Assembly (NCBI RefSeq): GCF_004010195.1
Contig: NC_057753.1
Coordinates: forward strand, 4,414,060-4,478,059
Reading direction: 5' to 3'
Length of the DNA stretch: 64,000 bases
Origin: Chiloscyllium plagiosum
Lineage: Eukaryota
Shown here: piece by piece, positions 4,365 to 53,345 of the stretch
Numbering within the stretch: position 1 is the first letter of the stretch
Layout: each line of letters begins with the position of its first letter
Program-made: the position numbers and the translations under genes
Notes under the pieces: model-generated
What the model saw: only the letters and a program-made list of their open reading frames with translations
Database searches by the model: none
What the model was told of the DNA's origin: nothing

Positions 4365-5272
4365 TCATTCAAACAGTTTGGCAATTAAATTGTATGGATA
4401 CATAAATCCATTCCTTAACTCCTTTCTGAATTTACTCTGGGTTCCTGCATAAATAAATGGGTTTATACAGGAACTCAAAAGTTGAAGCATGTATCCAACT
4501 TCCTCCAGACTAAATGTAGCCTCACTAGTATCAGAACCTGTGTAATAAGAAACATTAACAATTCGTACGTAAACTATGGTCATGAAATACAACGAGTACA
4601 ACAGGATGAAACTGCCAGAGATGGCAAAGAGTAATATAATAGATTTTCTCCGCCTCTCCATCTCTGGGTCAGCGAGTTTGCCTCCATTACTTGAAGTCTG
4701 GAGTCTCCTGCGTGCTCTGTTCGCGACAAGAATGTGCCTGATTGTCAGAGCATTGAGCAGCAAAATCAAAATGAATGGAACACAAGGAGTCAAAATTACA
4801 AGAAGCCAGTCATATGTGGCCCATGCAGGTGATGTATAGTATGTTAATTTTATTCTACAGAACCAGGCAACATTTTTAATGATGTACAAAGGCTCAAATA
4901 TAAAATACAAAAATGAATTTCTTATACAGCTTAATGTACAGATTGTTCCTATTACCCATCTTGCTGTTTTCTTTGTACAGTACCGTGATTTCAGCTTTGA
5001 ACAACAGATGGCCACAAATCGATCGAATGTAAAAGCGACCGTTAACCAGGCAGAACTGTCAATAGCTGCATATATTGCAGCAATACGAAGGCTGCATATT
5101 GGTGTGATGTTAAAATGACTCAATGGGAAATAAATTCCAGTGATCCGGTTCAATATTACAGCAGTGACAATGAGCAAGAGGTCTGTGATTGCCATACACA
5201 CCAGGTAATAAATGATACATCTGGACAGACCGCACCTGTTTCGACACAGAATCACAACAACTGCAAAATTCG
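4365..5272 (-). CDS. GPR139/GPR142-like class A GPCR paralog A, coding exon 2 (joined CDS 8824-8755 plus 5272-4365, 325 aa)
   Basis: The 7TM motifs are MAITDLL, TPICS, FTFDRFVAIC, WFC, TPCVPF, CINPFIY and helix 8 KFRKEL. Acceptor ttacag|CG gives phase 1. TGA stop at 4365-4367. Confidence 0.92.
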
Positions 5273-8754: not shown

Positions 8755-8824
8755 CTAGAACTCCGATAGCAGCAATAGTGGGATAGTAAATGGCAAACAC
8801 CAGACCTTTTGGTATTCCATGCAT
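8755..8824 (-). CDS. GPCR paralog A coding exon 1 (MHGIPKGLVFAIYYPTIAAIGVL)
   Basis: 70 nt from ATG to donor G|GTAAT. It is homologous to the other two first exons and its phase matches exon 2. Confidence 0.88.
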
Positions 8825-8876
8825 ATCTATCAGCAGATCTGAGTAGGTGCTGTAATGCATAGAAGGAAAGTCACAC

Positions 8877-8980
8877 TTATACATGATTCAAGGCTCTAGA
8901 GGCACAATTAACCTGTTTGATTTTGTTTAAAAAAAAACGATATACACTAATCGAAACAGAAGGTACCGCCACCCCTGGGG
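8877..8980 (-). promoter_or_regulatory. Paralog A proximal promoter: TATA-like box, O/E(EBF)-like sites and homeodomain site
   Basis: TATAA (minus strand, 8877-8881), CTCTAGAG (8894-8901), CAATTA (8905-8910), and a second site CCCCTGGGG (8972-8980). The first three are positionally conserved in all three paralogs. Confidence 0.6.
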
Positions 8981-9639
8981 TCATGTTTATACTTTGATGG
9001 AGCAGCAAGCTCTTTGAAATATGTGGAACCAAAATGAAATCCAACAGACTGCACTAAGGTTTAAGTTACATTTTCTCCCTAGAGCAGCACTGGAGCAGAA
9101 GCAGGCCATTCAGCCCCACGATCACGTTCCGCCATTCAATGCAATCATCATTGATTGTTGACCTAACTCCATATACCTGTCTTTGGGCCACATCCTTTAC
9201 TACATTTGCTTAACAAAATAAAGCTATTAGTCCAGTGATTTCAGTTCTTCACACAATTATGCACGCAGTGTAACGAAGAAGAAGTATACCAATGATTGTT
9301 ATTTAAACAAAATTAATTTAGAAGCATAACTATCCATCAATCTGTAACAATGAAGAAGATAATTTAGGATATGCCCTCTTGCATGATTTAATTTAGTTAA
9401 TTTCCTCTTAGATGATAATATACAAGAGCAGCAATCGGTTCTTCAACCCATGGAGTCTGCTGTCCATCTTTCAACATGGTTATAGCTGATCTGATAATTT
9501 CTAACTGAACTTTCAAGCATTCTCAATATAACCATTGATTTTTTTTGCATGACTAAAACTCTATTTCCGCATGGAATATTCTCATTGATCCAACATTGAC
9601 AGCCCTGTTCACGCAATAATTTCTCCAGTCCATTATGCC

Positions 9640-10745
9640 CTGGGATTGATGGGTCATTGACAGCACTGATTAGAAATTGACTAAAAATATAGCAAGCAGA
9701 AGGTTTAAGGAGATGGAAAGTTTTCAGAGATAAGCTGCAAGTGGTATTCCTCGGGATCGGTTTTGGGTCCTTGTTTTTCTTTATTTTCAGATCATTATAA
9801 ATGTGTTGGAGATGGGTCCTTGTTTTTCTTTATTTTCAGATCATTATAAATGTGTTGGAGATGGGTGTTGAGGGTAAATGTTCCAGCTTTTACAGATTAT
9901 ACTAAAGTAGGGAGAAGAACTAATTATGAGGATGACGCTCAGCAACCTCAGAGGGACATTCACAAGTTCGTCAAGTGGGAAGATACCTAGCAGATGAACT
10001 TCAACACGAAGAAATGCATTTTTGTAGAAAAACAGCCACGAACAGACAGTACGGGCTCAATGATGCATAAGAAACTCGAAGTTCAAGTGCATAATGGTTT
10101 GAAGGGAGTTTGGATAGATGCAACCGCTGTTAAGGAGGCTTGAAATGACTCCTGGGTTTCTAAATAGAGGCAAAGAGCATAAACGTCATGCTACAAGTTT
10201 ACAAATTATTGGTCAGACCGCATTTGGTTGCAGTATTGATGCCTTACTTAAGGACCTTCAATCGCTGGAGACAGTGCAAAGGAGACTTACTGGAATGACG
10301 TCAGGCATGAGGTAATTTAGATGCAATGGAAGAGATATTGGAGTCATTTTCCTTGCAGTACGAGAAGATTAAGAGGTGGCCTCATTGAGGTGCTCAAAAT
10401 TATGAACGAGTTTTGACTGTGGATTTTCTATTTCTGCTAGTTACTACCTCAGTAATTGGGGTGACAAAATCATGGCAGTCAGCAAGAGAGCTAGGAGTGA
10501 AATGAAGAGAAATGTTTTACTCACAGATTTGCTCACAGTTGGAATTCACTACCTGACAAGTTGTTGAGGTGGATTCTGTATGAGATTTTAAAAGGGAACT
10601 GGACATATATCGCAAAATAATGAATTTAGGTATCGACTGAGGCAGGGATGGAGAATGGAATAAGATGTGTAGATCTTTCTGAAAGCAGTACATACATGAT
10701 GTTTCGAATGGCCTCATTGTGTATTGTAATATTCTGTATTCTAAC
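9640..10745 (+). mobile_element. Old degraded CR1 fragment
   Basis: Contains AGTGGTATTCCTCGGGATCGGTTTTGGGTCC ([12 protein letters not shown]), an LETVQRRLT remnant and a CR1-type 3' end. Confidence 0.7.
9764..9866. repeat. Perfect 49-bp tandem duplication
   Basis: TGGGTCCTTGTTTTTCTTTATTTTCAGATCATTATAAATGTGTTGGAGA occurs at 9764 and again at 9813. Confidence 0.95.
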
Positions 10746-20432: not shown

Positions 20433-21349
20433 TTATCTTGAGAATTGATGTAATTTCGCAATTAGACAGAATAGATACTTCACCCCATTCATTAATTCTG
20501 CTCTGAACTTTCGTTGGGTACCACCATAAATAAATGGGTTGATGCAGGAACTGAAAAACTGAAGCATATAGCCAGTTTCCTCTAGTATAAATTTTGATTC
20601 TGTGAAGTCAGAACCTGAGGAATATGCGACATTCGAAATTCGGACATAGAGAACTGTGACAAAAAATACAGAATACAAGAGAATAAAACTTCCTGAGACA
20701 GCAAAGAGTAAAATCATGGACTTTCTTCGTTTCTCCATTTCTGTGTCACTTTGATGTTCTCTGTTGCTCTGAGTCCAAAGTCTCTCCCTGGCTTTATTCG
20801 CAGTTAGAATGTGTCTGACGGTGAGAGCATTGAGCAGTAAAATCAGAATGAATGGGAGACAAGGTGTTAAGATGGTACGAATCAAATCATACGCAGCCCA
20901 TGCAAGTGAAGTATAAAATTCAAATTTAATGCTGCAATACCAGGGAACATTGTTAACTATGTATGTAGGTTCATAAATAAAATACATAAATATATTCTTT
21001 ATACAGCTTAAAATGGAAACAGTAGCTAAAACTAGAGCTGCTGTATTCTGGGTACAATATTTGATTTTAAGCTTCTGACAACAAATGGCAACAAGTCGGT
21101 CGAAGGTAAAAGCAACAGTTAACCAGGCAGAACTATCAATGGCTGCATATATTAAGGAAGAACGAAGACTGCACAGTGGTGTGATGGAAAGGAAACTGGA
21201 TGGGAAGTAAATCCCAGCGATCCGACTCAGTATTACAGCAGTGATCATTACCAGGAGGTCTGTCACCGCCATGGACACCAGGTAATAGGTAATACATCCT
21301 GAGAGGCCGCATCGTCTTCGAGATAGGATGATAATCACTGCTACGTTAG
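20433..21349 (-). CDS. GPR139/GPR142-like GPCR paralog B, coding exon 2 (joined CDS 25480-25411 plus 21349-20433, 328 aa)
   Basis: Motifs MAVTDLL, TPLCS, FTFDRLVAIC, PWYC, TPCLPF, CINPFIY and KFRAEL. Acceptor tttcag|CT gives phase 1. Confidence 0.92.
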
Positions 21350-21381
21350 CTGAAATTGATGAAAATATACAAAAAGAGCAA

Positions 21382-24300
21382 AGAACAAAGAAAATTACAG
21401 CACAAATACAGTACCTTCAGCCATCGAAAGCTGCACAAATCTACATCATCGATATAAACATGTCACCTATTTTTTTAAGGATCTGTATCCCTCTTCTCCC
21501 TGCCCTTTCATGTATCTTTCTAGGTGCAGCTTAAATGATGCAATTGTGCCCATGTCTACTAATTCCGCTGGCAACGTATTCCAGGAACCCACCACCGTCA
21601 GCGTAAAGAACCTCACAGGCATATCTCCCTTAAACATTTCTCCTTTCATCTTGAATTCATGACCCCGAGTAAATGAGTCCCCTGCTCTGGGGAAAAAGCT
21701 ACTTGCTATCCACCCTGTCTACACCTCGCATGATTTTGTCGACCTCAATCAGGTCACCCCTCAACTTCCATCTTTCTGAGGAAATTAATCGTAATCTCCT
21801 CAACGTCTCTTCATAGCTGGCGCCCTCCATTCCAGGCAACATTCTGGTGAACCTCCTCTGCAACCTCTCGAAAGCATCAACATCATTTTGGTAATGTAGC
21901 GACCAGAACTGTATGCTGTATTCCATTTGTGGATGAACCAAAGTCCGAGATAGATGTTATCTGACCTGCCAACTCTTGTACTCAATACTCCGTCTGATAA
22001 GGAAAGCATACCATATTGATCACTCCATCTACCTAAGTTACCATCTTCAGGATACAATGGATCCAAACACCCAGATCGCTCTGTGCATCAATTTGCCCCA
22101 GGGTTTTTCTATTTACTGCATAGTTCGCTCTTGAATTGACTCTTCCAAAACGCATCACCTCGCATTTGCCTGGATTGAACTCCAGCTGCCATTTCTCTGC
22201 CCAGCTCTCCAATTTATCTATATTCTGCCACGTTCTATGAGAGTCCCTATCACTAGCGCTACTCAACCAATCTTACTGCCATTTGCAAACCTGCTAATCA
22301 GACCACCTATGCATTCCTCCAGATCTTTTATTTGGTTCCACCATGGATCCCTGTGGAACATCACTGATCACAGTTCTCTATTTTTTTGAAATTCCTTTTC
22401 ACTGTTATTCTTTGTCTTCTGTTGCCCAGCGAGTTCTCTATCCATCCAGCTAGTACACCTTGGACCCCATATTACTTCACTTTCTCCAACAGCCTACCAT
22501 GGGGAGTCTTATCAAAAGCCTCACTGAAGTCCATGTACAGGACATCGACAGTGCTTCCCTTATTAAAGTCTTGGTCACTTCCTCAGAAAATTCTATTGAG
22601 TTGGTAAGACATGACCTTCTCTGCACAAATTCACACTGCCTGTCACTGATAAGACCATTTCTTCCAAACGCAAACACATCCTATCACTCCGTATCTTGTC
22701 CAGCAGCTTCCCCACCACTGACGTTTGGCTCTCCGGTCCGTAGTTACCTGGATTATCCCTGATACCTTTCTTAACCAAGGGCACAGCATTACAAATTCGC
22801 CAGTCTTGCGGGACTTCACCCGTGTTCAACGATGCTGCAGATATATCTGTTAATGTCCTGGCTATTTCCTCTGTTACTTCCTTCAGTAACGTGGGATAGA
22901 TCCCATCCAGACATGGAGACTTGTCCACCTTAATATCTTTTGAATACCCAAACTTCCTCCCTCCTTAAGCCGACTTGATCGACATTAATCAAACGTTTAT
23001 CCCTAACGTCAACATCGATTGTGTCCCTCTCCTCGGTCAAAATGGATGCAAATTTATCATTAAGAATCTCAGCCATTTTCTCTGACTTCACCTATAACTT
23101 TCGTCTTTTGTCGTTGAGCATGCCAACATCTTCTTATTTACCTTCTTGCTCCTTATATACGAATAAAGGCTTTGGCATTTTCCTTAACCCTGTTTGTTAA
23201 AGATATATGATGACCCTTTTAGCCCTCTTAATTCCTCGTTTCAGATGAGTCCTACTTTCCCCATATTCTTCCAAAGCTCCGTCTGTTTTCAATCACATAG
23301 AGCTAGCGTATGCTTCCTTTTTCCTCTTTTCACCTGTCATCCATTGGTCCCCCAATCTTGTCAGTTCTATCCCTCATTTTCACAGGGACGTGTCTGCCCT
23401 GCACTCTAATCAATTTCTCGTTCAAAGCCTCCAACATATCAATCGGGAATTTACCTTCAAACTGCTGCTCCCAATCCAGCTCCTGCCGAATTTTGCTATA
23501 GCTGGCCTTCCCCTAATTTAGGGCCAGTCTCGTCTTTGTCCATGGGTATTCTAAAACTTACAGAATTGTGATCACTATTCCAAAAGTAATCCACTACTGA
23601 AACGGCAACCACCTGGTCAGGCTCATACCCCAACACCAGGCTAAGTTTGGCCCCTTTCCACTTTGGAATATTTATATACTGCTGTATAAAACCCTCCTGG
23701 AACCTCCTGACAAACCCTCCTCCATTTTCACCTCTAATACCAAGTGAATCCCAGTCAATGTTGGTAACATTAAAATCTCCTATCACCACCACCCTGTAGC
23801 TCCTACGTTTTTCCATAATCTGTTTATATATTTATACCTTTATCTCATGCTTGCTGTTGGGATGCCTGTAGTACAGCCCCAACGTTGTTACCATATCCTT
23901 CCTATTTTTGAGCTCTGCCTATATTGCCCTCCTTCAGCACAGCTATGATATCCTTTCTGACAAGTAATGCAACTCCTCCACCCCTTTTACCTTCCTCTCT
24001 GCCCTGCCTGAAGCGTCTAATTCCTGGCATATTTAGTTGCCAATCACGACCTTCCCTCAATCAAGTCTCAGTAATAGCAATAATATCATATTCCTAGGAG
24101 CAAATGCAAGACCTAAGTTCACCTGCCTTACCTACTACACTTTGATTAGATTCCCTACAGCATGGAAACAGGCCCTTCGGTCCAGCAGATGCACACTGAC
24201 CATCCGAAGATTTACCGACCCAGACCCATTCCCCTCTGACTAACGCACCTATCACTAGGGGGAACTTTAGCATGGCCAATTGATCTGGCCTGCTCATCTT

Positions 24301-24870
24301 TGAACTTTGGGAGAAAACCAGGGCACCTGTCGGAAACCCACACAGACACGGAGAGAGTGTGCAAACTCCACACAAGCAGCCGCCCGAGGCCGGAATCGTG
24401 CCTAGATCACTGAGCCACCGTGCCGCCTGTAACATCTCACAATAAAACAAATACACCTCAGACCACCTGTCCCTTTGCATTCGTCATCTGCTCCATGCCT
24501 ACTCTTTCCCTTAGTCACGCTGACTTCATTGTCTAGTTCCTTACAGGCTTTAGTTACTACCTCCTTACTGTCCACTAGCCTCGTCATTTGATTCCCATCT
24601 CCCTGCCACCCTCTTCAACAGCGTTAGCAAAAGCATCCTCAAGGACATTGGCTTCAGTCTGGCCCAGGTGTAATCGTTCCACCTTCCCCAGAACTGATCC
24701 CAATGTCCCAAAAGTCTGAACCCCCTCCCTCCTGCACTAGCTCTCAAGCCACGCATTCATTCTGTTAATTCTTTCATTTCTAATCTGACTTGCACACGGC
24801 ACTGGTAGCCATCCTGAGGTTGCTAACCCTGAGGTCCTACCATTTGACTTGGCTCCTAACTGATTCAATT
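21382..24870 (-). mobile_element. Long degraded CR1 (ORF1 esterase remnant plus ORF2 EN/RT) filling the intron of paralog B
   Basis: Remnants GFRLLGHWDQFWGRW (ORF1), VVIGDFNVTNIDW and SDHNSV (EN), DKSPCLDGIYP and EYSIQFWS (RT side), and a 3' tail near 21382-21430. Confidence 0.9.
24144..24428 (-). mobile_element. HE1-type SINE inserted in the CR1
   Basis: V-domain in reverse complement and the GATTAGATTCCCTACAG tail. Confidence 0.88.
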
Positions 24871-25410
24871 CTGCATTTCACCCAGAGGAGCAAACCCACA
24901 ATAATATAATTACTTAGCCTCGGTAACAATGAAATACTGCAATCAAATTTTACTTGCAGAAAGAAAATTATTAAGAGCGTGTAGATCTCCTGAGATGATA
25001 TGGAAAATGAGGCGAACTAAATAATTAAGTACATGCAACGAGATCCATAAGAAGAAAAAACGTGCCACTTGAAAGCTGTTGCATCTTATTATTCAGATAT
25101 TTTAAAGAAAATACAATTTAGATGCTATAACAAAAACATCGCAAAAGTGCAAGAAGTAATAGAAACATATCATGCTCCTCAATGGCGGAATTTATCGGAT
25201 TGAAATCTGCCAAAAATATCCCAAAGCAACAAAAAATATTATCCTGAAAAAGTGATATTTTTAAAAGTTTGATGTGAGAGGGCGACTGAGGAATTAAGAA
25301 GTAATGTACTTTTAATCAGAAGAATTGGTATGTGTATCTTATTGATGCACCGATATTAAATGGGAACATTCATAATGAAGAGTAGGAAACTATTCATTAA
25401 AGCGGCTTAC

Positions 25411-25480
25411 CTGGGACACCAATAGCTGCTAAGATAGGATAGTAAATAACAAACACGAGGCCTGTTGGTGTTACATGCAT
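25411..25480 (-). CDS. GPCR paralog B coding exon 1 (MHVTPTGLVFVIYYPILAAIGVP)
   Basis: 70 nt from ATG to donor CAG|GTAAG, phase 1. Confidence 0.9.
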
Positions 25481-25531
25481 TTCGACCAGAAGATTTTGAT
25501 TTATTCTGTCAAACCGTAAAAAGCAGTCACA

Positions 25532-25566
25532 TTTATGCCCAATGTCAGTCTCTCGGGGGCTAATCA
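25532..25566 (-). promoter_or_regulatory. Paralog B proximal promoter
   Basis: CATAAA (minus strand, 25532-25537), CTCTCGGG (25550-25557) and TAATCA (25561-25566). The two motif offsets from the ATG (70 and 81) are the same as in paralog A. Confidence 0.6.
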
Positions 25567-26109
25567 CAAGCATGTTCTAAATTTAACTAACGAAGAGATT
25601 AGTTCAGCTAATTCTTTGTTGCTGTTGCCTTCTGATGCAGTTAAGAGTTTATTTTATGCGTTCAGGCATTGCACCAAACTGTTCACTCTTTTAGGTATTG
25701 TCCTTCATAAGAGAACAGTGACCTAATCTGAGTGGTCAGGGCCAAGTCAGTGCTTCCTTTGAAAAAACTGCAAAGACAATTTTGCCTGATTCGTTGGCTG
25801 TACAGAAAGTTTTAATCTCTTTGGTGTTTAATATTTGGATAATGAAGGTGGTCAATATATTTAATAGGCACGAGACAATTTCGCGAAAAAAAATAAAAAG
25901 GAATGAGCCAACACTTAGGATCAAACTGAGAGTTGTTTTTGTGTCAACATGTAAGTATTACCTTGTCACAAACACATTGCATATAAATCATGTTCGGAGT
26001 ATCAAACAACTTTCTCAAAATCTGTGCACCAAATGCGCTGTCACAAATTAAGAAAGAGTGATGTTATTGTGCTAGGCACTTGTACAATTAAGAAGTTGAT
26101 CACGTATAG

Positions 26110-28934: not shown

Positions 28935-29557
28935 GTGTTGATAGAGGTGGAGATAACTGCCATACTACTCAGACCCCGTCGTATCATGGTAGCCCACAAA
29001 TCCACCAACACACTAAAACAGCAACTAATGAACTTGACAGACCCGATACAGACAGCAAGCAAAACTAATGTAAGTTATAAAATGCCGAGCAAGAACTGTA
29101 AAAAACACTACATTGGACAAACAGGCAGAAAATTAGCCATTGGGATGCATGAACATCAACGAGCCATAAAACAACATGACCCTCTCTCACTAGTATCCTT
29201 ACATACAGATGAGGAAGGACACCATTTCAACTGGTACAACACATCCATCCTAGGACAAGCCAAACAGAGACATGCACGAGAATTCCTAGAAGCATGGCAT
29301 TCCAACCGGAACTCTATCAACAAACACATTGATTTGGATCCCATCTACTACCCCCTGAAAAAAGAACAGGAAATGAAATCAGCATAAGTAACGACGCCAC
29401 CACAGGAAATCACCAATTCAAGGAAACGCAAACATGTAAATAGAAAGCCGGAAACAACAGCAGTGCTCTGTTCAGAGGCTCACTGACGATGTTACCTAGC
29501 ACGGTGATGAAACGGCTGAAAATGGACCTTTCAGTTCAGCGAGCAATCCTACATCAA
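28935..29557 (+). mobile_element. Penelope-like element 3' part (GIY-YIG domain plus 3' end with hammerhead-like motif)
   Basis: ORF contains NVSYKMPSKNCKKHYIGQTGRKL...HEHQ...REFLEAWHS. Motif CTGACGA-TGTTACC-tagcac-GGTGAT-GAAAC at 29483-29513. Confidence 0.85.
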
Positions 29558-40163: not shown

Positions 40164-41074
40164 TCACAGTTTAAATACATTAACTAATGGACTCAGCAGA
40201 TATTTTAATGCTTTTTGTAACTCGTACCTAAACAAACTCTGTGTCCCTGCATAAATGAATGGGTTGATGCAGGAACACAAAACCTGAAGCATGTATCCGC
40301 TTTGTTGTAGAGCAAATGATGAATTAGTGAAATTGTAACTTGAGGAATAAGTAACATTTCCAATTCGAATATAGAAACTCATTACAAAAAGCAGCAAATA
40401 TGATAGGATGAAACCACCGGAGATGGAAAAGAGTAAAACAATTGACTTTCTCCGCTTCTCCATCTCAATGTCACTGTGATTCTCTCCACTACTCTGGGTC
40501 TGGAATCTCTTCCGGGCTTTATTTGCTGCTAGAATGCTCCTGACTGTCAGAACATTAAGTAGCAAAATCAGAACGAATGGAAGCCATGGAGTAAAAATGA
40601 TCCAAATCCAGTCATAAGCTGCCCATGCAGGTGATGCATAATAAGTTGCCTTTATGCTACAGAACCATGGTATATTGTTAATTATGTAGATAGGTTCATA
40701 TATAAAATATATAAAAACATTTTTTACGCAACTCAGTACAGACACAATTCCTATAATCACCCCAGCCATCCTCTTGTTGCAATATTTGTTTTTCAGGTTA
40801 TGGCTGGAAATCGCCACAAATCGATCAAAGGTGAAAGCAACCGTTAACCAGACCGAACTGGATATCGCTGCAAAATATAAAGCGGAACGAAAACTGCAAA
40901 CTGGTGTGATAGACAGGAAACTAGAAGTGAAATATGTCCCAGCAATCCGATTTAATATGACGACCGTGATTATAACTAGGAGATCTGTCACCGCCATTGA
41001 CACCAGGTAGTAAATTACGCATGCAGAAAGACCACACCTTCTTCGAGACAGAACGACAATCACTGCCAAGTTAG
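40164..41074 (-). CDS. GPR139/GPR142-like GPCR paralog C, coding exon 2 (joined CDS 42841-42772 plus 41074-40164, 326 aa)
   Basis: Motifs MAVTDLL, TPVCS, FTFDRFVAIS, PWFC, TPWLPF, CINPFIY and LFRYEL. Pyrimidine-rich acceptor atatag|CT gives phase 1. Confidence 0.92.
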
Positions 41075-42771
41075 CTATATAAAAGAAAATATGAAAGAAA
41101 TGGGAAAATTGAAACTTTCCTCGATTGGCTGCGATCAATGTCAATGTTTCACCAGAATCTGAGTGAAGCACATCACGTTAAGATGATTCTTGAATTTAGA
41201 AGTTATCCCTGAGAGAATTATTGACTGTGTTTGCAGTCATCATCATCCGGATCCGCAAAATAAGACAAGTTCTTTGGAGAATTAATTCAAACAGCCTAAA
41301 CCAATATAGCAAATCAAGGCGAGTAGGAAAGCATCAAAGGCAGAAAGAAACAACATTAGTATCAACAAAAAAATACTGAATCCATTGAGGAGGGTATATC
41401 CAAGTCAAGAGTAATGGAAATAACTTTGTGTAACTGACACAATATTTAGCACCTCACTGAGTACCTAAAGTGGATCGTTTCAATCAATTTATGTCAGCTA
41501 GTATTAGAGAACTCCAATTCTCTTGGTTAAAACAAAAAAAGGACACTCCATCAGAGGGAGTTCATAGAAATTTCAAGTTTCACCAATGCGATGGAAAGGA
41601 TTGTGCAGCGTTTGAATCACAACTTCGAGCTCTTCACATGACAATTCAGTAAATTTTAGGATGTCAAACTGAACTAAGAAAACTCGCAAGTGGCGAGAAC
41701 TCATTTGGAGAAAAATTCCCCGATGTTGCTTTGCACCCTCTGTCGAATCAAAATTATTCCTTGTCGATATTTGAAACGAGAATGCTTCAGCTTAATTGTG
41801 AGGACAGTATTAGTTCTGCTGTATCGCTCAATTTGCAAATAAAATAACGAAGTTTGTAACAATTTGGAAATATTGTTGTGTGGTATTAGGAAAAGGAAAT
41901 TTGGCTTCAATTTATTACTAACAACAGTCAACCATGAAGTCGAGGGAACAGCTAAAACATTGTAAATTAGAGTGAAACACGCCCGTGTTAATGAATACTC
42001 CTTCAATAAATCCATTCATTGAGGTAATTCGGAAAATACTTAATAGTTCAAATTTCTCAATCAGCCGGTGATCTATACTGTTTATGATTTACGCTGTTAC
42101 TATTAAATGCTTAACAAAGTATTCTGCATACGATTATCACAATTTGTCAATATGCCCACTGTAACAGTAGCGATTTAAATGTAAATCCCAATTTCCTTTG
42201 AAATTATGGTCTCACAAATGCAACACAGGCAATTTTAAAGCCACAACATAGCTACGTGTTTGTAATAGTATCATTTTCAATAATACTCTAAAGTTTTATT
42301 TGCGTAGTGATTACAGCAAGAAAATTCATGCACAGTTGCTTTACCAATGATACAACAGAAGTTCATCAACATTGTTTTTGTCAAGCAACTAACCGAGCCC
42401 AGGTACTGTTAACATCTTACAATCAGATGCTATATGTAACAGAAAGTTAGAACTCACCTGAAAATGACATATTATACAGACTAATAGGAAGGAACTTTGC
42501 AATTCCAAGAGGAAAATTACAGTGTTAAATAGATGTAATCACACCGAGTTATCATCGTTAAAAAAAACTCAGAAAATTGAGGGACATCTAATGCTTTGTA
42601 CTGATATTATTGAAGTACATAAGCCACACCGTAAAGTGAGAAATATATATTTTTAAGTCGAACATCCTTCATGGTAATGAGAAAATGTGTAGAAAAGTTT
42701 TTGTTATTTGGGGATAATTGTTGGAACCAAGCTAATATTTCTGCAGCTTTTCAATGACTGCAGTGTCTCAC

Positions 42772-42841
42772 CTGGAATCCCGATCACTGCAACGATGGGA
42801 TAGTAAATTTCAAAGATCAGACCCTGTGATACTGCATGCAT
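42772..42841 (-). CDS. GPCR paralog C coding exon 1 (MHAVSQGLIFEIYYPIVAVIGIP)
   Basis: 70 nt from ATG to donor CAG|GTGAG, phase 1. Confidence 0.9.
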
Positions 42842-42892
42842 CTCCGTCAGAAGTTCTGAATATGCTTGGCATTCTCTGACCACCAATTACTG

Positions 42893-42960
42893 TTATATCT
42901 GAAGTAAGACTCCTGGGAAACAATTAGCTAATTCAAAATTATATATTAATTAATTTAGTC
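42893..42960 (-). promoter_or_regulatory. Paralog C proximal promoter
   Basis: TATAA (minus strand, 42893-42897), CTCCTGGG (42910-42917), CAATTA (42921-42926), and further TAATT motifs to about 42955. Offsets from the ATG are 69 and 80. Confidence 0.6.
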
Positions 42961-45059: not shown

Positions 45060-47958
45060 AGTAAGATTAGGGAGGGTGGGAAAAAAGGAGGGGGGGTGGC
45101 ATTGCTAATTAGAAATGGTATAACGGTTGCAGAAAGGAAGTTTGAGGGGGATCTGCCTCTGGAGGTAGTATGGGCTGAAGTCAGAAATAGGAAAGGTGCA
45201 GTCACCTTGTTGGGTGTTTACTATAGGCCCCCCAATAGCAGCAGAGATGTGGAGAAACAGATTGGGAAACAGATTTTGGAAAGGTGCAGAAGCCACAGGG
45301 TCGTAGTCATGGGCGACTTCAACTTCCCAAATATTGATTGGAAGCTCTTTAGATCAAGTAGATTGGATGGGGCGGTGTTTGTGCAGTGTGTCCAGGAAGC
45401 TTTTCTAACGCAGTATGTAGATTGTCCAACCAGAGGGGAGGCCATATTGGATGTGGTACTCGGTAATGAACCGGGACAAGTGGTGGGCTTGTTAGTGGGT
45501 GAACATTTTGGTGATGATGACCACAATTCTGTGACTTTCACCTTGGTTATGGAGAGAGATAGGTGCGCACAACAAGGTAGATTTTATAATTGGGGGAAGG
45601 GAAATTACGACGCTGTAAGGCAGGATTTGAGGAGCATACGTTGGGAGCATAGGCTGTCAGGGAAGGATGTGGAGGAAATGTGGAACTTTTTCAAAGAGCA
45701 GATACGACGTGTCCATGATATGTATGTACCTATCAGGCAGGAAAGAAATGGTCGTGTGAGGGAGCCTTGGTTGACGAGAGAGGTTGAATGTCTGGTAAAG
45801 AGGAAAAAGGAGGCTTACATAAGGTTGAGGAAACAGGATTCAGACAGAGCAGTGGAGGGATACAGGATAGCCAGAAGGGACCTGAAGAAAGGGATTAGGA
45901 GAGCGAAGAGAGGGCATGAAAAATCGTTGGCGGATAGGATCAAGGATAACCCCAAGGCATTTTATGCGTATGTGAGAAACCTGAGAATGACGAGAACGAG
46001 GGTAGGTCCGATCAAGGACAGTAGTGGGAGACTGTGTATTGAGTCGGAAGAGATAGGAGAGGTCTTGAACAAGTACTTCTCTTCAGTATTTACGAACGAG
46101 AGGGACCGTATTGTAGAAGAGGAGAGTGTGAAATGGACTGGTAAGCTAGAAGAGATACCTGTTAGGAAGGAAGATGTGCTGGACATNNNNNNNNNNNNNN
46201 NNNNNNNNNNNNNNNNNNNNNNNNNNNNNNNNNNNNNNNNNNNNNNNNNNNNNNNNNNNNNNNNNNNNNNNNNNNNNNNNNNNNNNNNNNNNNNNNNNNN
46301 NNNNNNNNNNNNNNNNNNNNNNNNNNNNNNNNNNNNNNNNNNNNNNNNNNNNNNNNNNNNNNNNNNNNNNNNNNNNNNNNNNNNNNNNNNNNNNNNNNNN
46401 NNNNNNNNNNNNNNNNNNNNNNNNNNNNNNNNNNNNNNNNNNNNNNNNNNNNNNNNNNNNNNNNNNNNNNNNNNNNNNNNNNNNNNNNNNNNNNNNNNNN
46501 NNNNNNNNNNNNNNNNNNNNNNNNNNNNNNNNNNNNNNNNNNNNNNNNNNNNNNNNNNNNNNNNNNNNNNNNNNNNNNNNNNNNNNNNNNNNNNNNNNNN
46601 NNNNNNNNNNNNNNNNNNNNNNNNNNNNNNNNNNNNNNNNNNNNNNNNNNNNNNNNNNNNNNNNNNNNNNNNNNNNNNNNNNNNNNNNNNNNNNNNNNNN
46701 NNNNNNNNNNNNNNNNNNNNNNNNNNNNNNNNNNNNNNNNNNNNNNNNNNNNNNNNNNNNNNNNNNNNNNNNNNNNNNNNNNNNNNNNNNNNNNNNNNNN
46801 NNNNNNNNNNNNNNNNNNNNNNNNNNNNNNNNNNNNNNNNNNNNNNNNNNNNNNNNNNNNNNNNNNNNNNNNNNNNNNNNNNNNNNNNNNNNNNNNNNNN
46901 NNNNNNNNNNNNNNNNNNNGTTGAAGTCAGAGAGTGGTGGTAGATGGTAAATATTCAGCCTGGAGCCCAGTTACAAGTGGAGTTCCGCAGGGATCAGTTC
47001 TGGGTCCTCTGCTGTTTGTAATTTTTGTTCATGACTTAGATGAGGGAGTCGAAGGGTGGGTCAGTAAATTTGCAGATGATACGAAGATAGGTGGAGTTGT
47101 GGACAGTGAGGAGGGCTGTTGTCGGCTGCAGAGGGACTTAGATATGATGCAGAGCTGGGCTGAGGAGTGGCAGATGGAGTTCAACTCTGCCAAGTGTGAG
47201 GTTGTCCATTTTGGAAGAACAAATAAGAATGCGGAATACAGGGTTAATGGTAGGGTTCTTAGTCAGGTGGAGGAACAGAGGGATCTTGGGGTCTATGTAC
47301 ATAGATCTTTGAAGGTTGCCACTCAGGTGGATAGAGTTTGTAAGAAGGCCTATGAGTATTATCGTTCATTAGCAGAGGGATTGAATTCAAGAGTCGTGAA
47401 GTGATGTTGCAACTGTACAGGACTTTGGTTAGGCCGCATTTGGAGTACTGTGTGCAGTTCTGGTCGCCTCACTTTAGGAAAGATGTGGAATCTTTGGAGA
47501 GGGTGCAGAGAAGATTTTCCAGGATGTTGCCTGGAATGGAGAGGAAGTCGTACGAGGATAGGTTTAGAGTTCTCGGCCTTTTCTCGTTGGAACGGCGAAG
47601 GATGAGGGGTGACTTGATAGAGGTTTATAAGATGATCAGAGGAATAGATAGAGTAGACAGTCAGAAACTTTTTCCCCGGGTACAACAGAGTGTTACAAGG
47701 GGACATAAATTTAAGGTGAAGGGTGGAAGGTATAGGGGAGATGTCAGGGGTGGGTTCTTTACCCAGAGAGTGGTGGGGGCATGGAATGCGCTGCCCGTGG
47801 GAGTGGTAGAGTCGGAATCATTGGCGACCTTTAAGCGGCATTTGGATAGGTACATGGATGGGTACTTAATCTAGGTTAATCTAGGTTAGAGGTTCGGCAC
47901 AACATCGTGGGCCGAAGGGCCTGTTCTGTGCTGTATTGTTCTATGTTCTATGTTCTAT
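45060..47958 (+). mobile_element. Young 5'-truncated CR1 nested in the older CR1
   Basis: Long open EN reading frame (GGGVALL, YYRPP, MGDFNFP, DHN) and RT ([16 protein letters not shown]). TTCTATG-repeat tail. Apparent TSD GTACTT at 45054-45059 and 47959-47964. One frameshift near 47350. Confidence 0.92.
46187..46919. other. Assembly gap (733 N)
   Basis: Run of N inside the young CR1. Confidence 1.
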
Positions 47959-48429
47959 GTACTTTAGATGGGACAGTTTTTGTCCAATGTGTGCAGGAGT
48001 GTTTCTTGACACAGTATGTAGACAGGCCAACAAGTGGTTAGGCAAGATTCCAGGTGGATAGGATGGGGAGGGAAACGGCAGGAGATGGAGACAGTCGATA
48101 TGTGGAGCTTATGTAAGGCATAGCTAACGTGTGACCTTGATAAGTATGTACCTATCAGGCATGGAGGGAGTGGTCGAGCGAGGTAGCTGTGGTTAACTAA
48201 AGATATTGAATCACTTCACAAGTGGAAGTAGAAGGCTTATGTGAGGATGAGACATGCAGGCTCAGTTAGGGCGCTTGAGAATTGCAAAATAGCCAGGAAT
48301 GACCTAAAGCAGGAACTCAGAAGAGCCAGGAGGTGGCATGAAAAGTTGTTGGCAGATAGCATCAAGGAAACCCCTAAAGCTTTCTATAGGTAAATCCGGA
48401 ATAAAAGAATGACTGGGATAAGACTATTG

Positions 48430-48522
48430 TTTAGATCGGAGTGGTACTGGAAAAGCACAGCACGTCAGGCAGCATCCGAGGAACAGGAAAATCAATGTTT
48501 CGGGCAAAAGCCCTTCATCAGG
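48430..48522 (-). mobile_element. Short Penelope tail with hammerhead core, inserted in the CR1
   Basis: The reverse complement reads CCTGATGA-A-GGGC-TTTT-GCCC-GAAAC-ATTG...GGATGCTGCCTGAC. Confidence 0.75.
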
Positions 48523-50664
48523 TAATACTATTGACAATCAAGGACAGTAGTGGGGAGTTGTGCATGGAGTCTGATTAGATAGGAGAAGCGCTGAATGAAT
48601 ATGCTTCATCCGCATTCACACTGGAAAAATGCAAAGTTGTCGAGGAAAACAATGAGTTACAGGCCACTAGACAGATGGGATTGAGTTTCCCAAGAAGGAG
48701 GTGTTAGCAATTATGGAAAGTGTGAAAATAGATAAGTCACCTGGGCCTGATGGGATTTATTCTAGGATTCTCTGAGAAGTCAGGGAGGAGATTGCAGAGG
48801 CTTCAGCTTTAATCTTTATGTTGTCATTGTCCACAGGAACAGTGCCAGAGGATTGGAGGACAGCAAATGTCCCCTTGTTCAAGAAGGGGAGTAGAGACAA
48901 CCCTGACAATTATGAACCAGTGAGCCTTACTTTGGTTGTGGGAAAAGTGTTGGAAAAGGTTGTAAGAGAGAGGATTTATAATCATCCAGAGAGGAAAAAG
49001 TTGATTAGGGATAGTCAACACGGTTTTGTGAAGGGTAGGTCGGGCCTCACAAACCTTACTGAGTTCTTTGAGAAGGTGATCAAACAGGCGGATAAGGGTA
49101 AAACGGTTGATGTGATATATATGGATTTCAGTGAGGCCTATGTCACGGTTCCCAAAGATAGGCTATTATGTAAACCACGGAGGAGTGGGATTGAGGGTGA
49201 TGTAGCCATTTAAGTCAGAAAATGGCTAGCTGAAAGAAGACAGAGGGTGATGCTTGATGGTTATCCTGGAGTTCAGTTAATAGTGTTGTAAAGCAAGGAT
49301 CTGTTTTGGGGCCATTGTTGTGTGTTATTTTTATAAATGATGCAGAGGAGGGATTAGAAGGATGGGTTAGTAAATTTGCATATGACACTAAGATCGTTGG
49401 AGTTATGGAGAGGGCTAAAGGATGTTGCAGATTGCAGAGGGACATAAATAAGCTACAGAGCTGGGCTGAGAGGTGGCAAATAGAGTTTAATGTGGAAAAG
49501 TGTGAGGTGATTCACTTTGGAAGGAGCAAAAGAAAGAAAGAATGCTGGGCTAATGATAAAATTCTTGGCAGTGTAGATGAGCATAGAGATCTCGGTGTAC
49601 ATGTACAGAGATCTCTGAAAGTTTCCTCCCAGGCTGATAGGGTTGTGAAGAAAGCATACGGTGTGTTAGCTGTTTTTGGTAGAGGGATTGAGTTTCGGAG
49701 CCACGAGGTCATGTTGCAGCTGTACAAAATTCTGGTGCGGCCACACTGGTAGTATCGCTTACAGTTCTGGTCACCACATTGTAGGAAGGATGTGGAAGGT
49801 TTGAAAAGGGCTCAGAGGTGATTGACTTGAATGTACCCTGGTATGGAGGGAAGGTCTTATGAGGCAAGGCTGAGGGAATGAGGTTGCTTTCATTTGTGCA
49901 AACAATGTTGAGAGGTGACTTAATTGAGATGCATAAGTTAATCAGGAGTTGAGATAGGGTGGACAGTGAGAGCGTTTTTCCTCAGATGGTGATGACTACC
50001 ATGAGGGGATATAGCTTTAAACTGAGCGGAGATATAGGTATAGGACAGATGTCAGAGGTAGTTTCTTTACTCAGAGTGTAGTAGGTGCGTGGAATGTCCT
50101 GACTGCAAAAGCAGTAAACCCGCCAATTTTAAGTCCACTTAAATATGTCATTGGATAAGCATATGGATGAAAATCGCCTTCAGATTGGTTCCACAGGTCG
50201 GAGCAACATCGAGGTATGAAGGGCCTGCACTGCACTGTCATGTTCTATGCTTTATGTTCTAAACTACATCAGGTATCTGAATAATGGGCAAATACAAACA
50301 AATTAAGAGTTGAAATGCAATGGACAAATACGTTACTGAGTCATAAAACCCATTAACATAAAAAAATGATGACCAGGAGTCATGGCCAAACGTGGGCAAG
50401 ATTCACTAGCCTGATCAAACAGAAAATAAAATGGCAAATCTGAACAATGTGACAGAATCATGAATAAATATACGTACAAAACAAAATAATGGCAAACTTG
50501 AAATTGAACAAGTATTATAAAACATACATTGGAGAAATGGCCAAATAAACCACAACTCTGCAGTATGCTTTAATATCACAAGGTAGGCCAAATCACAACA
50601 ACCCATCAATGCAACTGACGACAGCAGAATCCTTCAGGGCATGAAACAAAGAAGTGAACCAATT

Positions 50665-53345
50665 AGAACATAGAACATTACAGCACAGTACAGGCCCTTC
50701 GGCGCTCGATGTTGCGCCGACCTGTCATACCAATCTGAAGCACAGGGGTATAGGTTTGCTCGCTGAGCTCTAGGTGTGACATCCAGACGTCTCATTACCT
50801 GGCTCGGTAACATCATCAGTGGTAACCTCCAAGTGAAACGAAGCTGTTGTCTCCTGCTTTCTATTTATATGTTTATCCTGGATGGGGTTCCTGGGGTTTG
50901 GGGTGATGTCTGAAGCCCATCTAACCTACACTATTCCATGTGCGTCCATATGCTTGTCCAATGAGGACTTAAATGTACTTAAACTTAGCGAATCTACTAC
51001 CGTTGCAGGCGAAGCATTCCAGAACCTTACTACTCTCTGAGTAAAGAAACTACCTCTGACATCCGTACTATATCTATCACCCCTCAATTTAAAGCTATGC
51101 CCCCTCGTGCTTACCGTCCCCATACTTGGAAAAAGGCTCTCCCTGTCCACCCTATCTAACCCTCTGATTATCTGATGTGTCTCTATTAAGTGACCTCTCA
51201 ACCTTCCTCTCTCTAACGAGAACAGCCTCAGTTCCCTCAGCCTTTCCTCGTAAGACCTTCCCTCCATACCAGGCAACATCCTAGTAAATCTCCTCTGCAC
51301 CCTTTCCAAAGCTTCCACATCTTTCTTATAATGCGGTGACCAGAACTGTACACAATACTCCAAATGTGGCCGTACCAGAGCTTTGTACAGCTGCAGCATA
51401 ACATCCTGATTCCGGAACTCAGTCCCTCTATTAATAAAGGTCAAAACACTGTATGCCTTCTTAACAACCCTGTCAATCTGTGTGGCAACTTTCAAGGATC
51501 TGTGTACATGGACACCGAGATCTCTCTGCTCGTCTGCACTCCCAAGAATCTTACCATTAGCCCAGTACTTTGCATTCCGATTACTCCGTCCATTGTGTAT
51601 CACCTCACACTTGTCCATATTAAACTCCATTTGCCACCTCTCAGCCCAGCTTTGCATCCTATCTATGTCTCTCTGCAACCTACTACATCCTTCGTCACTA
51701 TCCACAGCTCCACCGAACCTTAGAGTCGTCCGCAAATTTACTAACCCATCCTTCTAAGCCCTCATCCAGGACATTTATAAAATGACGAACAGCAGTGGAC
51801 CCAACACCAACCCTTGTGGTGCACCGCTAGTAATTGGACACCAAGATGAACATGTTCCATCAGCCACCACCCTCTGTCTTCTTTCAGCAAGCCGATTACT
51901 GATCTCAACTGCTATATCTCCCACAATCCCATTCTTCCACATTTTGTACAATAGCCTACTGTAGGGAACCTTATCGAACGCCTTGCTGAAATTCATATAC
52001 ACCACATCAACCGGTTTACTCTCATCTACCTGTTTGGTCACGTTGTCAAAAAACTCCATAAGATTCGTTAGGCACGACCTACCCTTCACAAAACCGTGCT
52101 GACTGTCCCTGATCAGATTATTCTTTTCTAGATGGTTATAAATCCTATCTCTTATAACCTTTCCCAACACTTTACCGACAAATGAAGTGAGACTCACTGA
52201 TCTGTAATTACCAGGGTTGTCTCTAATACCCTTTTTGAACAAGGGAACCACATTTGCTATCCTCCAGTCCTTAGGCACTATTCCTGTAGACAATGAAGAT
52301 TTGCAGATCGATGCCAAAGGCTCGGCAATCTCTTCCCTTGCTTCCCAGAGGATCCTAGGATAGATCCCATCCAACCCAGGGGACTTGTCTATTTTCACAC
52401 TCTGCAGTATTTCTAATACCTCTTCCTTGTGAACCTCAATCTCTTCTAGTCTAGATGCAAGTATCTCTGTATCTTCCTCGCCAACATTTTCATTTTCTAT
52501 AGTGAACACTGTCGAAAAATATTTATTTCGTGCCTCCCCTATCTCCTCTGACTCCACACACAACTTCCCACTATTATCCTTGATTGGCCCTAATTTAACT
52601 CTCGTCATTCTTTTATTCCTGACATACCTATGAAAAGCCTTAGGATTAACCCTATCCGCCAACAACTTCTCATGTCTCCTCCTGGCTCTTCTGAGCTCTC
52701 TTTTTAGGTCTTTCCTGGCTTCCTTGTAACCCTCAAGCGCCCTAACTGAGTTTTCACATTTTGTCCTAACATAAGCCGCCTTCTTCTCCTTGACCAGGGA
52801 TTCCACTTCCTTAGTAAACCACGGCGCACGCGTTCTATGTCTTCCTCCCTGCCTGACAGGTACATACCTATCTAGGACACACAGGAGCTTTTCCTTGAAT
52901 AAGCTCCACATTTTTAAAGTGCTCATTCCCTGCAGTTTCTTTCCCCATTCTACGCTTCCTAAATCTTTCCTAATTGCATCGTAATTTTCCCCAGCTTGCT
53001 CGGTGGAGTACACCTATCCCTTTCCATCACTAAAGTAAACCTGACAGAATTGTGATCGCTGTCTCCAAAGTGCTCACCTACTTCCAAATCTAACACCTGG
53101 CCAGGCTCATTACTCAGTACTAAATCTAAAGTGGCTTCGCCCCTTGTTGGCCTGTCTACATACTGTGTCACGAATCCCTCCTGCACACACTGCACAAAAA
53201 CTGACCCATCTATAGTACTCGTACTGTAGTGATCCCAGTCAATATTTGGATAGTTGAAGTCCCCCATGACAATTACCCTGCCTCTCTCACTCCTATCCAG
53301 AATCATCTTAGCTATCCTTTTCTCTACATCTCTGGGACTATTCGG
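50665..53345 (-). mobile_element. CR1 ORF2 (partial EN, RT and complete 3' end); downstream unit of a tandem chimera
   Basis: ORFs 51775-53013 and 50926-51735 carry RT motifs. AGAACATAGAACA tail. Confidence 0.93.
50742..50908 (-). mobile_element. Penelope 3' fragment inserted in the CR1 3' UTR
   Basis: Flanked by TCTGAAGC direct repeats (50734-50741 and 50909-50916), similar to 29400-29557. Contains CTGATGA...GAGACGTC, a mutated hammerhead core. Confidence 0.75.

What the first reader, a model, noticed from the sequence alone, without database searches (positions are those of the whole stretch)
8877..8980. Olfactory-receptor-like promoter module (O/E-EBF site + 3 bp + homeodomain site + TATA) upstream of paralog A
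Seen on the + strand: A reads agg-CTCTAGAG-gca-CAATTA, B reads agt-CTCTCGGG-ggc-TAATCA and C reads aga-CTCCTGGG-aaa-CAATTA. The palindrome starts 70, 70 and 69 nt upstream of the ATG and the TAAT-core site 81, 81 and 80 nt upstream. A TATA-like box lies 52-57 nt upstream, while surrounding bases are poorly conserved. Paralog A has an extra near-perfect CCCCTGGGG site. Established knowledge: adjacent O/E (EBF; core CCCNNGGG) and Lhx2/Emx2-type TAAT sites characterise mammalian OR promoters and enhancers. Inference: these receptors may be driven by the olfactory-neuron programme.
Basis: partly seen in the sequence, partly recalled or inferred. Interest (0 to 1): 0.8.

Follow-up and report, generated by a model that had tools for sequence, protein, structure and literature searches.

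The report
Smell-neuron-type promoter on shark receptor family
A short DNA module (homeodomain-type site, EBF-type site, TATA box) is kept at a near-fixed spacing in front of almost every examined member of a huge, unstudied shark receptor family; it resembles the switch that drives mouse odorant receptors, so these genes are likely, but not yet shown, to be a missing set of smell receptors.

Summary
The motifs are real, at the stated coordinates. They form the proximal promoter of a two-exon 'GPR139-like' class A GPCR, not of an odorant receptor (OR). The family is huge: 1,450 exon-1 pattern matches, control 0. The module TAATTR-NN-TCCC-NN-GAG, 12 bp, TATA scores above background in 89 of 94 paralog promoters. 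Site identity is 75-78%, against 33% in the internal spacer and 50% at fourfold-degenerate sites. Composite+TATA gives 59 genome hits against 1 control; 30 of 30 inspected precede a family exon 1. An E-box (CAGCTG) sits about 60 bp further up in 36 of 93. The closest known element is the mouse Lhx2/Ebf composite of OR enhancers, but the shark spacer is 1 bp longer and lies in a promoter. Against an olfactory role: shark V2R promoters lack the composite, the largest subfamily has a decayed EBF half-site, and expression is untested (reads came from an unknown tissue; none on gene A). I give olfactory-neuron expression about 50%. The scan noted the family's size before on other DNA (e1-9870320), not its promoter. 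Ten paper searches found no description of either.

The parts
8905..8910 (-). Homeodomain-type site TAATTG of paralog A (family consensus cTAATTA)
   Evidence: sequence; column conservation 0.68-0.96 in 94 promoters
8903..8904 (-). 2-bp spacer, near-fixed length, free sequence
   Evidence: gap 2 in 44 of 48 strict pairs and in 63 of 80 relaxed fits; pairwise identity 0.33
8893..8902 (-). O/E (EBF)-type dyad CCTC-TA-GAGC (family consensus TCCC-TG-GAGC)
   Evidence: EBF binding inferred
8875..8881 (-). TATA box TATAAGT, 12 bp after the last conserved G of the dyad
   Evidence: offset 29-30 from module start in 76 of 93 promoters
8850..8852 (-). Predicted transcription start (CA initiator, +1 about 8851); inferred, not mapped
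   Evidence: CA at 30-31 nt from the TATA in 41% of 87 promoters against 0-14% at other offsets
8966..8971 (-). Position of the family E-box (GCAGCAGCTGCAC); decayed in paralog A
   Evidence: CAGCTG in 36 of 93 promoters against 1.4% background; A aligns here but reads TGGCGG
8972..8981 (.). Second O/E-like site (CCCCTGGGG), shared only with A's close sister genes
8755..8824 (-). Coding exon 1 of receptor A (70 nt, GT donor)
4365..5272 (-). Exon 2 of receptor A; predicted spliced product 325 aa, intact class A GPCR
   Evidence: 82% identical over exon 2 to a whale-shark protein named 'probable G-protein coupled receptor 139'
25531..25567 (-). Module of paralog B: TGATTA 25566-25561, dyad 25558-25549, CATAAAT 25537-25531
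20433..25480 (-). Receptor gene B (exon 1 25480-25411, exon 2 21349-20433; 328 aa predicted)
42891..42927 (-). Module of paralog C: TAATTG 42926-42921, dyad 42918-42909, TATAACA 42897-42891
40164..42841 (-). Receptor gene C (exon 1 42841-42772, exon 2 41074-40164; 326 aa predicted)

Best explanation
The element is a selectively conserved module directly upstream of exon 1 in a very large shark family of orphan class A GPCRs; it likely acts as their proximal promoter, is predicted to bind an EBF/COE dimer next to a Lhx2/Emx2-type homeodomain protein, and likely switches the genes on in olfactory sensory neurons. Shown: module, near-fixed spacing, purifying selection, restriction of the module+TATA pattern to this family, intact two-exon genes. 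Inferred mechanism: a bHLH factor of the Ascl1/E-protein type binds the E-box about 60 bp upstream where it is kept. The homeodomain protein and EBF bind side by side about one helical turn upstream of TBP, and transcription starts about 30 nt after the TATA, giving a leader of about 26 nt. Every copy would carry its own composite, so the promoters could compete for these factors, which would suit sparse receptor choice (speculative). The receptors vary most around the predicted ligand pocket while keeping two acidic pocket residues, which would suit amino-acid, amine or peptide cues.
For: Module above background in 89 of 94 promoters and 32 of 35 non-redundant ones (<72% aa identity). Over all pairs of 93 paralogs, identity is HD 0.76, O/E core 0.78, TATA 0.75 against spacer 0.33, dyad centre 0.44, flanks 0.35-0.37 and fourfold-degenerate sites 0.50; it stays at 0.75/0.80/0.75 in the most diverged bin. 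Composite+TATA pattern: 59 hits against 1 control. All 30 inspected precede a family exon 1, including a subfamily whose leader differs in sequence and length. The best fit to TCCCnnGGGA is at gap 2. The loose published mouse composite pattern is met with at most 1 mismatch in 69 of 93, against about 1% per background position. In mouse the composite is the signature of OR enhancers and is needed for their activity (PMC5608512, PMC7804114, PMC12547500; passages). Shark V2R promoters are also enriched for O/E-like sites (15 of 17 against 41% background) and have a TATA about 50 nt before the ATG. Family behaviour fits chemoreceptors: clusters, at least 1,450 exon-1 matches, 90 of 93 exon 2s open (a sample biased to intact genes), pocket entropy 1.44 against 0.58 intracellular, in a genome with only three strong OR hits.
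Against: No expression evidence: no listed RNA holder, and the single-cell run of unknown tissue gave no gene-A-specific depth, no exon-1 reads, no splice joints and no start pile-up. V2Rs, shown in catshark olfactory neurons (PMC10116579), lack the TATA-proximal composite in 17 of 17 promoters found and have no CAGCTG. The two canonical ORs have nothing clearly above background in the 49 kb between them (best 15.6). The dyad lies 1 bp further from the HD site than in the mouse Sfaktiria probe and two Lipsi sites (my reading). The long-N-terminus subfamily, which supplies nearly all of the first 100 listed exon-1 matches, keeps the HD site and one half-site but has a decayed first half. Sharks are reported to lack ciliated olfactory neurons, the cell type in which the composite was defined (PMC10116579). 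The top-50 genes of the catshark brain+olfactory epithelium library included no GPCR (PMC11979771 section 11). EBF, LIM-homeodomain and bHLH factors are co-expressed in many neurons, and EBF with E2A in B cells (recalled).
Confidence: 0.5

Rival explanations
1. Same factors, another sensory or neuroendocrine cell. The module drives the receptors in cranial or dorsal-root sensory neurons, taste or solitary chemosensory cells, electro- or mechanoreceptors, or gut endocrine cells, as an MRGPR-like expanded family.
For: The EBF + homeodomain + CAGCTG grammar is neuronal but not nose-specific (recalled). The V2R promoters used in shark olfactory neurons are built differently. The nearest human relative of the sister gene is GPR139, a brain receptor for aromatic amino acids (recalled).
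Against: A side-by-side HD/O/E composite of fixed spacing is described for OR enhancers in the papers I read. Families of this size with pocket-centred variation are typical of olfactory repertoires (inference).
Confidence: 0.27
2. Immune or B-lineage promoter: EBF1 and an E protein (E2A, on CAGCTG) drive a birth-and-death family of leukocyte receptors.
For: EBF site plus E-box is the classic B-cell pair (recalled). Some family reads (up to about 10 per position, strand-biased) occur in a single-cell run of unknown tissue. Massive duplication also marks immune families.
Against: The homeodomain site is as conserved as the EBF site, which a B-cell model does not need. The cross-mapped reads carry the W-F-T variant (9 of 9 at 5043), found in only 4 of 93 genes of this subfamily but common in the others, so they probably come from other subfamilies.
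Confidence: 0.1
3. A real promoter module, but the dyad is bound by a factor other than EBF (for example a zinc-finger or STAT/BCL6-type protein), so the likeness to OR elements is coincidental.
For: The second half-site is GAG, not GGG, in 81% of promoters. Mean mismatch to TCCCnnGGGA is 2.4 of 8. No curated matrix library was available to score competitors.
Against: The symmetry C-Y-C-N-N-G-R-G around a free 2-bp centre is the EBF geometry. Monahan et al. report that the Ebf half of composites tolerates such pyrimidine/purine substitutions.
Confidence: 0.1
4. No function: the likeness among paralogs is inherited from recent duplication, gene conversion or a repeat.
For: The family is duplicated en masse, and some subclades are near-identical.
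Against: Site identity does not decay with neutral divergence, while the internal spacer does. The 17-mer alone is not enriched genome-wide (600 against 704 control), so it is not a repeat. It persists across subfamilies with unrelated leaders.
Confidence: 0.03

Closest known systems
Lhx2/Ebf composite motif of mouse OR enhancers (Greek Islands, J element); PMC5608512, PMC11643329, PMC7804114
   Same: TAATTR followed directly by a degenerate EBF dyad, same orientation, stereotyped spacing, pyrimidine/purine tolerance in the EBF half; loose published pattern matched with at most 1 mismatch in 69 of 93 promoters.
   Different: Spacer 2 bp rather than 1 bp in most copies (10 of 80 relaxed fits have 1 bp). 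It lies 12 bp from a TATA box in each gene's own promoter, whereas in mouse it is enriched in intergenic enhancers and depleted from OR promoters. It serves a non-OR GPCR family. Binding is untested.
Mammalian OR promoters (O/E + HD + TBP motifs; reviewed in PMC12547500)
   Same: AT-rich, O/E and HD sites within about 100 bp of the predicted start, TATA box.
   Different: Near-fixed geometry rather than scattered sites; no sign of a spliced non-coding leader (0 of 87 with an acceptor signal near the ATG); additional E-box; the genes are not ORs.
GPR139/GPR142 and the GPR139/142-related sets GPR210A/B of Rinne et al. 2019 (PMC6504862)
   Same: Databases name the proteins 'probable GPR139'. A single-copy sister gene (fishes, amphibians, turtles, sharks) has human GPR139 as best solved-structure hit (E 5.7e-18).
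   Different: The expanded family itself matches human GPR139 only weakly (E 8.3e-07, below CCK-A receptor) and forms its own clade (100/100). The sister gene lacks the module within 400 bp of its exon 1. Whether the sister gene is GPR210A or B was not established.
Shark V2R/OlfC promoters (same genome, C13 cluster)
   Same: TATA about 50 nt before the ATG; O/E-like sites enriched.
   Different: No fixed HD-O/E composite next to the TATA and no CAGCTG.

Membership tests
Greek-Island Lhx2/Ebf composite motif | HD site TAATTR immediately followed by an EBF-type dyad in fixed orientation | tested here: met
Greek-Island Lhx2/Ebf composite motif | Stereotyped 1-bp separation of the two sites | tested here: not met
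   gap 2 in 44 of 48 strict pairs and 63 of 80 relaxed fits; mouse register read by me from three supplement sequences and the published pattern; the loose pattern itself fits best without a shift
Greek-Island Lhx2/Ebf composite motif | Located in intergenic enhancers of OR clusters, depleted from promoters | tested here: not met
   sits 12 bp upstream of a TATA box of non-OR genes
Greek-Island Lhx2/Ebf composite motif | Bound by Lhx2 and EBF in olfactory neurons and required for expression | not testable with these tools
   needs EMSA, CUT&Tag or a reporter
Mammalian OR-type promoter | AT-rich proximal region with O/E, HD and TATA motifs | tested here: met
Mammalian OR-type promoter | Drives sparse expression in olfactory epithelium from a mapped start site | tested here: inconclusive
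   unknown tissue, no gene-A reads; start only predicted
Canonical odorant receptors (Pfam 7tm_4) | Match to PF13853 and OR sequence motifs | tested here: not met
   only PF00001 is hit; the PF13853 genome search lists no place on contig C44
GPR139/GPR142 orthologues | High similarity to human GPR139, single copy | tested here: not met
   E 8.3e-07; at least 140 exon-2 copies (capped); true GPR139 was not in my tree

The most novel reading that the evidence does not exclude
Sharks and rays replaced the odorant-receptor repertoire with an unrelated, GPR139/142-derived family of hundreds to over a thousand GPCRs, an unrecognised vertebrate olfactory receptor family. Each gene carries its own Lhx2/EBF composite in its promoter, possibly an old promoter-borne form of the grammar that mammals use in OR enhancers.
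Probability: 0.42. Interest if true: 0.95.

Novelty: new variant of a known kind. Interest (0 to 1): 0.82.

Why it matters
Cartilaginous fishes have large olfactory organs yet are reported to have very few OR, TAAR and V1R genes and a few dozen V2Rs (PMC10116579), and a 'relative paucity' of GPCRs (PMC8455134). A family with at least 1,450 exon-1 copies, whose short-N-terminus members carry an olfactory-type promoter, is a concrete candidate for the missing repertoire and is testable with existing tissue atlases. It would also show the Lhx2/EBF composite used as a per-gene promoter on a receptor family unrelated to ORs, which bears on how receptor choice evolved. Even if the tissue is another one, this defines the regulatory signature of what may be the largest gene family of sharks, one I could not find described.

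Tried and rejected
No RNA holder was listed for exon 2 (no evidence either way). The read lay was inconclusive: X8 laid nothing at all and is no test; X7 and X9 gave mostly repeat-derived depth and a few paralog reads; tissues are not on record. Cross-species promoters could not be obtained: metagenome scans gave 0 and 1 hit (L207 not analysed), and no other shark genome is held. The OMP search rang nowhere, control included (uninformative). The count of short-N-terminus genes failed because the pattern was too loose, with many chance hits among the listed rows. A family-wide second O/E site was not supported: 45 of 93 at 2 mismatches or fewer against 25% background, 3 of 93 at 1 or fewer against 2%, no fixed position in the non-redundant set. 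A transposon origin was rejected. Two non-family hits of the 1-bp-gap pattern showed no evident gene. The catshark tissue-atlas supplement could not be read and may hold the answer; bioRxiv supplements are closed. One shark genome paper could not be retrieved. Rows dropped: 9 of 103 loci had no exon 1 within about 9 kb; L061 (doubtful exon-1 call) is counted in 89 of 94 but left out of the n=93 statistics; 3 of 20 V2R loci had no exon 1; 5 of 30 first loci were left out of the long-type tally; 29 of 59 composite+TATA hits were not inspected. No structure or complex prediction was run.

Full report
1. Observation. The three motif strings and the CCCCTGGGG site are at the stated places. They lie upstream of three intact minus-strand, two-exon genes whose predicted spliced products are 325, 328 and 326 aa class A GPCRs. 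In gene direction paralog A reads TAATTG (8910-8905), 2 bp, CCTCTAGAGC (8902-8893), TATAAGT (8881-8875), ATG (8824).

2. The genes. Homologues are elasmobranch proteins named 'probable G-protein coupled receptor 139' and similar (best 82%). The name is loose: the family matches human GPR139 at only E 8.3e-07, below the CCK-A receptor. A tree of 40 selected proteins (no true GPR139 included; invertebrate rows on long branches) gives one clade (100/100) of shark, skate and ray members plus two salamander proteins on a long branch. A conserved single-copy gene of fishes, amphibians, turtles and sharks sits beside it with weaker support (86/80). That sister gene has GPR139 as best solved-structure hit. 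The genome search returned 140 exon-2 matches, capped. An exon-1 pattern gave 718+732 = 1,450 exact matches against 0 for the reversed control; this count includes broken copies and possible assembly duplicates. The same genome has three strong OR hits. At least three subfamilies exist: short 'MH' N-terminus (the window's genes), 'MAKPP', and a long tandem-repeat N-terminus that supplies nearly all of the first 100 listed matches.

3. Family-wide test. I fetched 100 of the 140 closest loci and added the window's three; 94 of 103 had exon 1 within about 9 kb. An 18-bp matrix seeded on A, B and C converged on cTAATTA-NN-TCCC-NN-GAG. Leave-one-out scores exceeded the background 99th percentile in 89 of 94 (median 19.9 against about -6.5; background maximum 9.3), and in 32 of 35 non-redundant genes. 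Across all pairs of 93 genes, identity was 0.76 at the HD site, 0.78 at the dyad core and 0.75 at the TATA. It was 0.33 in the spacer, 0.44 in the dyad centre, 0.35-0.37 in the flanks and 0.50 at fourfold-degenerate sites. Site identity did not fall in the most diverged bins. The spacer and centre are internal controls unaffected by indels, so this is purifying selection rather than shared descent. The HD-dyad gap was 2 bp in 44 of 48 strict pairs and 63 of 80 relaxed fits, with 10 at 1 bp, 6 at 0 and 1 at 4; ties favour shorter gaps. The TATA offset was 29-30 in 76 of 93. A CA initiator peaks 30-31 nt after the TATA (41% of 87), and none of 87 has a splice-acceptor signal near the ATG; 27 of 87 predicted leaders hold an upstream ATG. 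Composite+TATA occurs 59 times in the genome against 1 control. All 30 inspected hits (the first 30 in contig order) precede a family exon 1, including the MAKPP subfamily, whose ATG lies 98-115 nt from the module rather than about 86, so the module is tied to the TATA and not the ATG. The 17-mer alone is not enriched (600 against 704). A third element, GCAGCAGCTGCAC, lies about 60 bp upstream: CAGCTG in 36 of 93 (11 of 35 non-redundant) against 1.4% background. It is decayed in A; its assignment to Ascl1/E-protein factors is recalled. A's extra O/E site is subclade-specific. In 25 long-N-terminus loci the HD site and the TGGAG half persist but the first half-site is mostly decayed.

4. Comparators in the same genome. 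Of 20 V2R loci, 17 yielded exon 1. They show a TATA about 50 nt before the ATG, and O/E-like words (2 mismatches or fewer) in 15 of 17 against 41% of background windows; family promoters give 89% against 27%. None has the TATA-proximal composite (two close paralogs score 12.0 and 14.7 about 200 nt upstream) and none has CAGCTG. The 49 kb between the two canonical ORs holds a best score of 15.6, within background expectation. The single-copy sister gene has no module within 400 bp.

5. Expression. No RNA holder was indexed. In single-cell run X7 (about 2% read, tissue not on record) unique parts of gene A and exon 1 had zero depth, with no joints or start pile-ups. Exon 2 collected a few strand-biased reads carrying paralog letters (W-F-T, 9 of 9), a variant found in 4 of 93 MH-type genes but common among the other family representatives. 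X8 laid nothing. This neither supports nor refutes the olfactory reading.

6. Mechanism. Shown: a selectively constrained HD-dyad-TATA module specific to this family. Inferred: it is the proximal promoter (very likely); the dyad binds EBF/COE and the TAATTR site a Lhx2/Emx2-type protein (about 0.8); the cell type is the olfactory sensory neuron (about 0.5 overall). Protein features fit a diversifying receptor repertoire: entropy 1.44 at 18 approximate pocket positions against 0.58 intracellular and 1.07 overall, with nearly invariant acidic residues at about 3.37 and 5.39 (numbering approximate). Rivals are other sensory or endocrine cells (0.27), B-lineage cells (0.10), a non-EBF factor (0.10) and no function (0.03).

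7. Relation to known elements. Monahan et al. (PMC5608512; passages and supplementary files 2, 6 [cells cut] and 7) define a Lhx2/Ebf composite enriched in OR enhancers relative to OR promoters. PMC11643329 (passages) gives a 1-bp separation and a degenerate pattern. PMC7804114 (passages) shows the composite is needed in the J element, and PMC12547500 (passages) reviews OR promoters. The shark module matches the loose pattern best unshifted (69 of 93 with at most 1 mismatch; 47 and 46 at shifts -1 and +1; background about 1% per position). But its dyad centre lies one base further from the HD site than in the Sfaktiria probe and two Lipsi sites as I read them. It therefore looks like the composite but fails two membership features (spacing, location). 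PMC10116579 (passages) reports few ORs, no in situ OR signal, V2R dominance and apparently no ciliated neurons in catshark. PMC11979771 (passages and section 11; supplement unreadable) found no GPCR among the top 50 brain+olfactory genes and does not mention GPR139 in its main text. PMC8455134 (passages) speaks of a paucity of GPCRs in cartilaginous fishes. PMC6504862 (passages) names GPR139/142-related sets in bony fishes only. PMC13113109 (passages) held nothing relevant.

8. Novelty. Ten full-text searches found no paper on the expansion or its promoter. One search was swamped by generic shark papers, one search was aimed at the mouse motif, and subscription journals and supplements are not covered. 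The scan had noted the family's size on other DNA (e1-9870320) but nothing on the promoter. Verdict: observation confirmed and much stronger than three genes suggested; interpretation partly supported; a new variant of a known regulatory grammar on an undescribed giant receptor family. Interest 0.82, because it makes the question of the missing shark olfactory repertoire directly testable.

Noticed in passing
L001-L030 (G000 C1, C5, C7, C8): Largest subfamily has N-termini built from tandem repeats of about 14 aa (MDQNLRTLDWNVPT-like) with N-glycosylation sequons; its promoter keeps the HD site but has a decayed EBF half-site and a different TATA-like word.
   Followed up: partly
L133-L141, L160: 'MAKPP' subfamily: same composite-TATA geometry with an unrelated, longer leader; many near-identical copies on unplaced contigs.
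   Followed up: partly
L181, L183 (G000:C26): Single-copy conserved sister receptor, found in fishes, coelacanth, amphibians, turtles and sharks; no mammal or bird among the 120 listed hits; lacks the module.
   Followed up: partly
proteins P0223, P0272: Salamander proteins fall inside the expanded clade (100/100) on a long branch, so the clade may predate the shark/bony-fish split.
   Followed up: partly
L161-L180 (G000:C13): Shark V2R promoters have a TATA about 50 nt before the ATG and recurring TCTTNAGGGA-type O/E-like sites 90-165 nt upstream.
   Followed up: partly
G000:C6:115562250-115612624: The two canonical OR genes lie head to head about 49 kb apart.
   Followed up: partly
window 45309-56820: Stack of LINE (CR1-like, label recalled) endonuclease/reverse-transcriptase ORF fragments, with an assembly gap at 46187-46919.
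   Followed up: no
window 28986-29387 (+): 133-aa ORF resembling a GIY-YIG endonuclease of Penelope-type elements (recalled motif, not tested).
   Followed up: no
window 9764-9866: Perfect 49-bp tandem duplication upstream of gene A.
   Followed up: no
about 30 bp and 85-100 bp upstream of the module in family promoters: A second TAATTR at about -30 (26 hits in 93 promoters) and a CCATCAAA word (TCF/LEF-like, recalled) recur in part of the family.
   Followed up: partly
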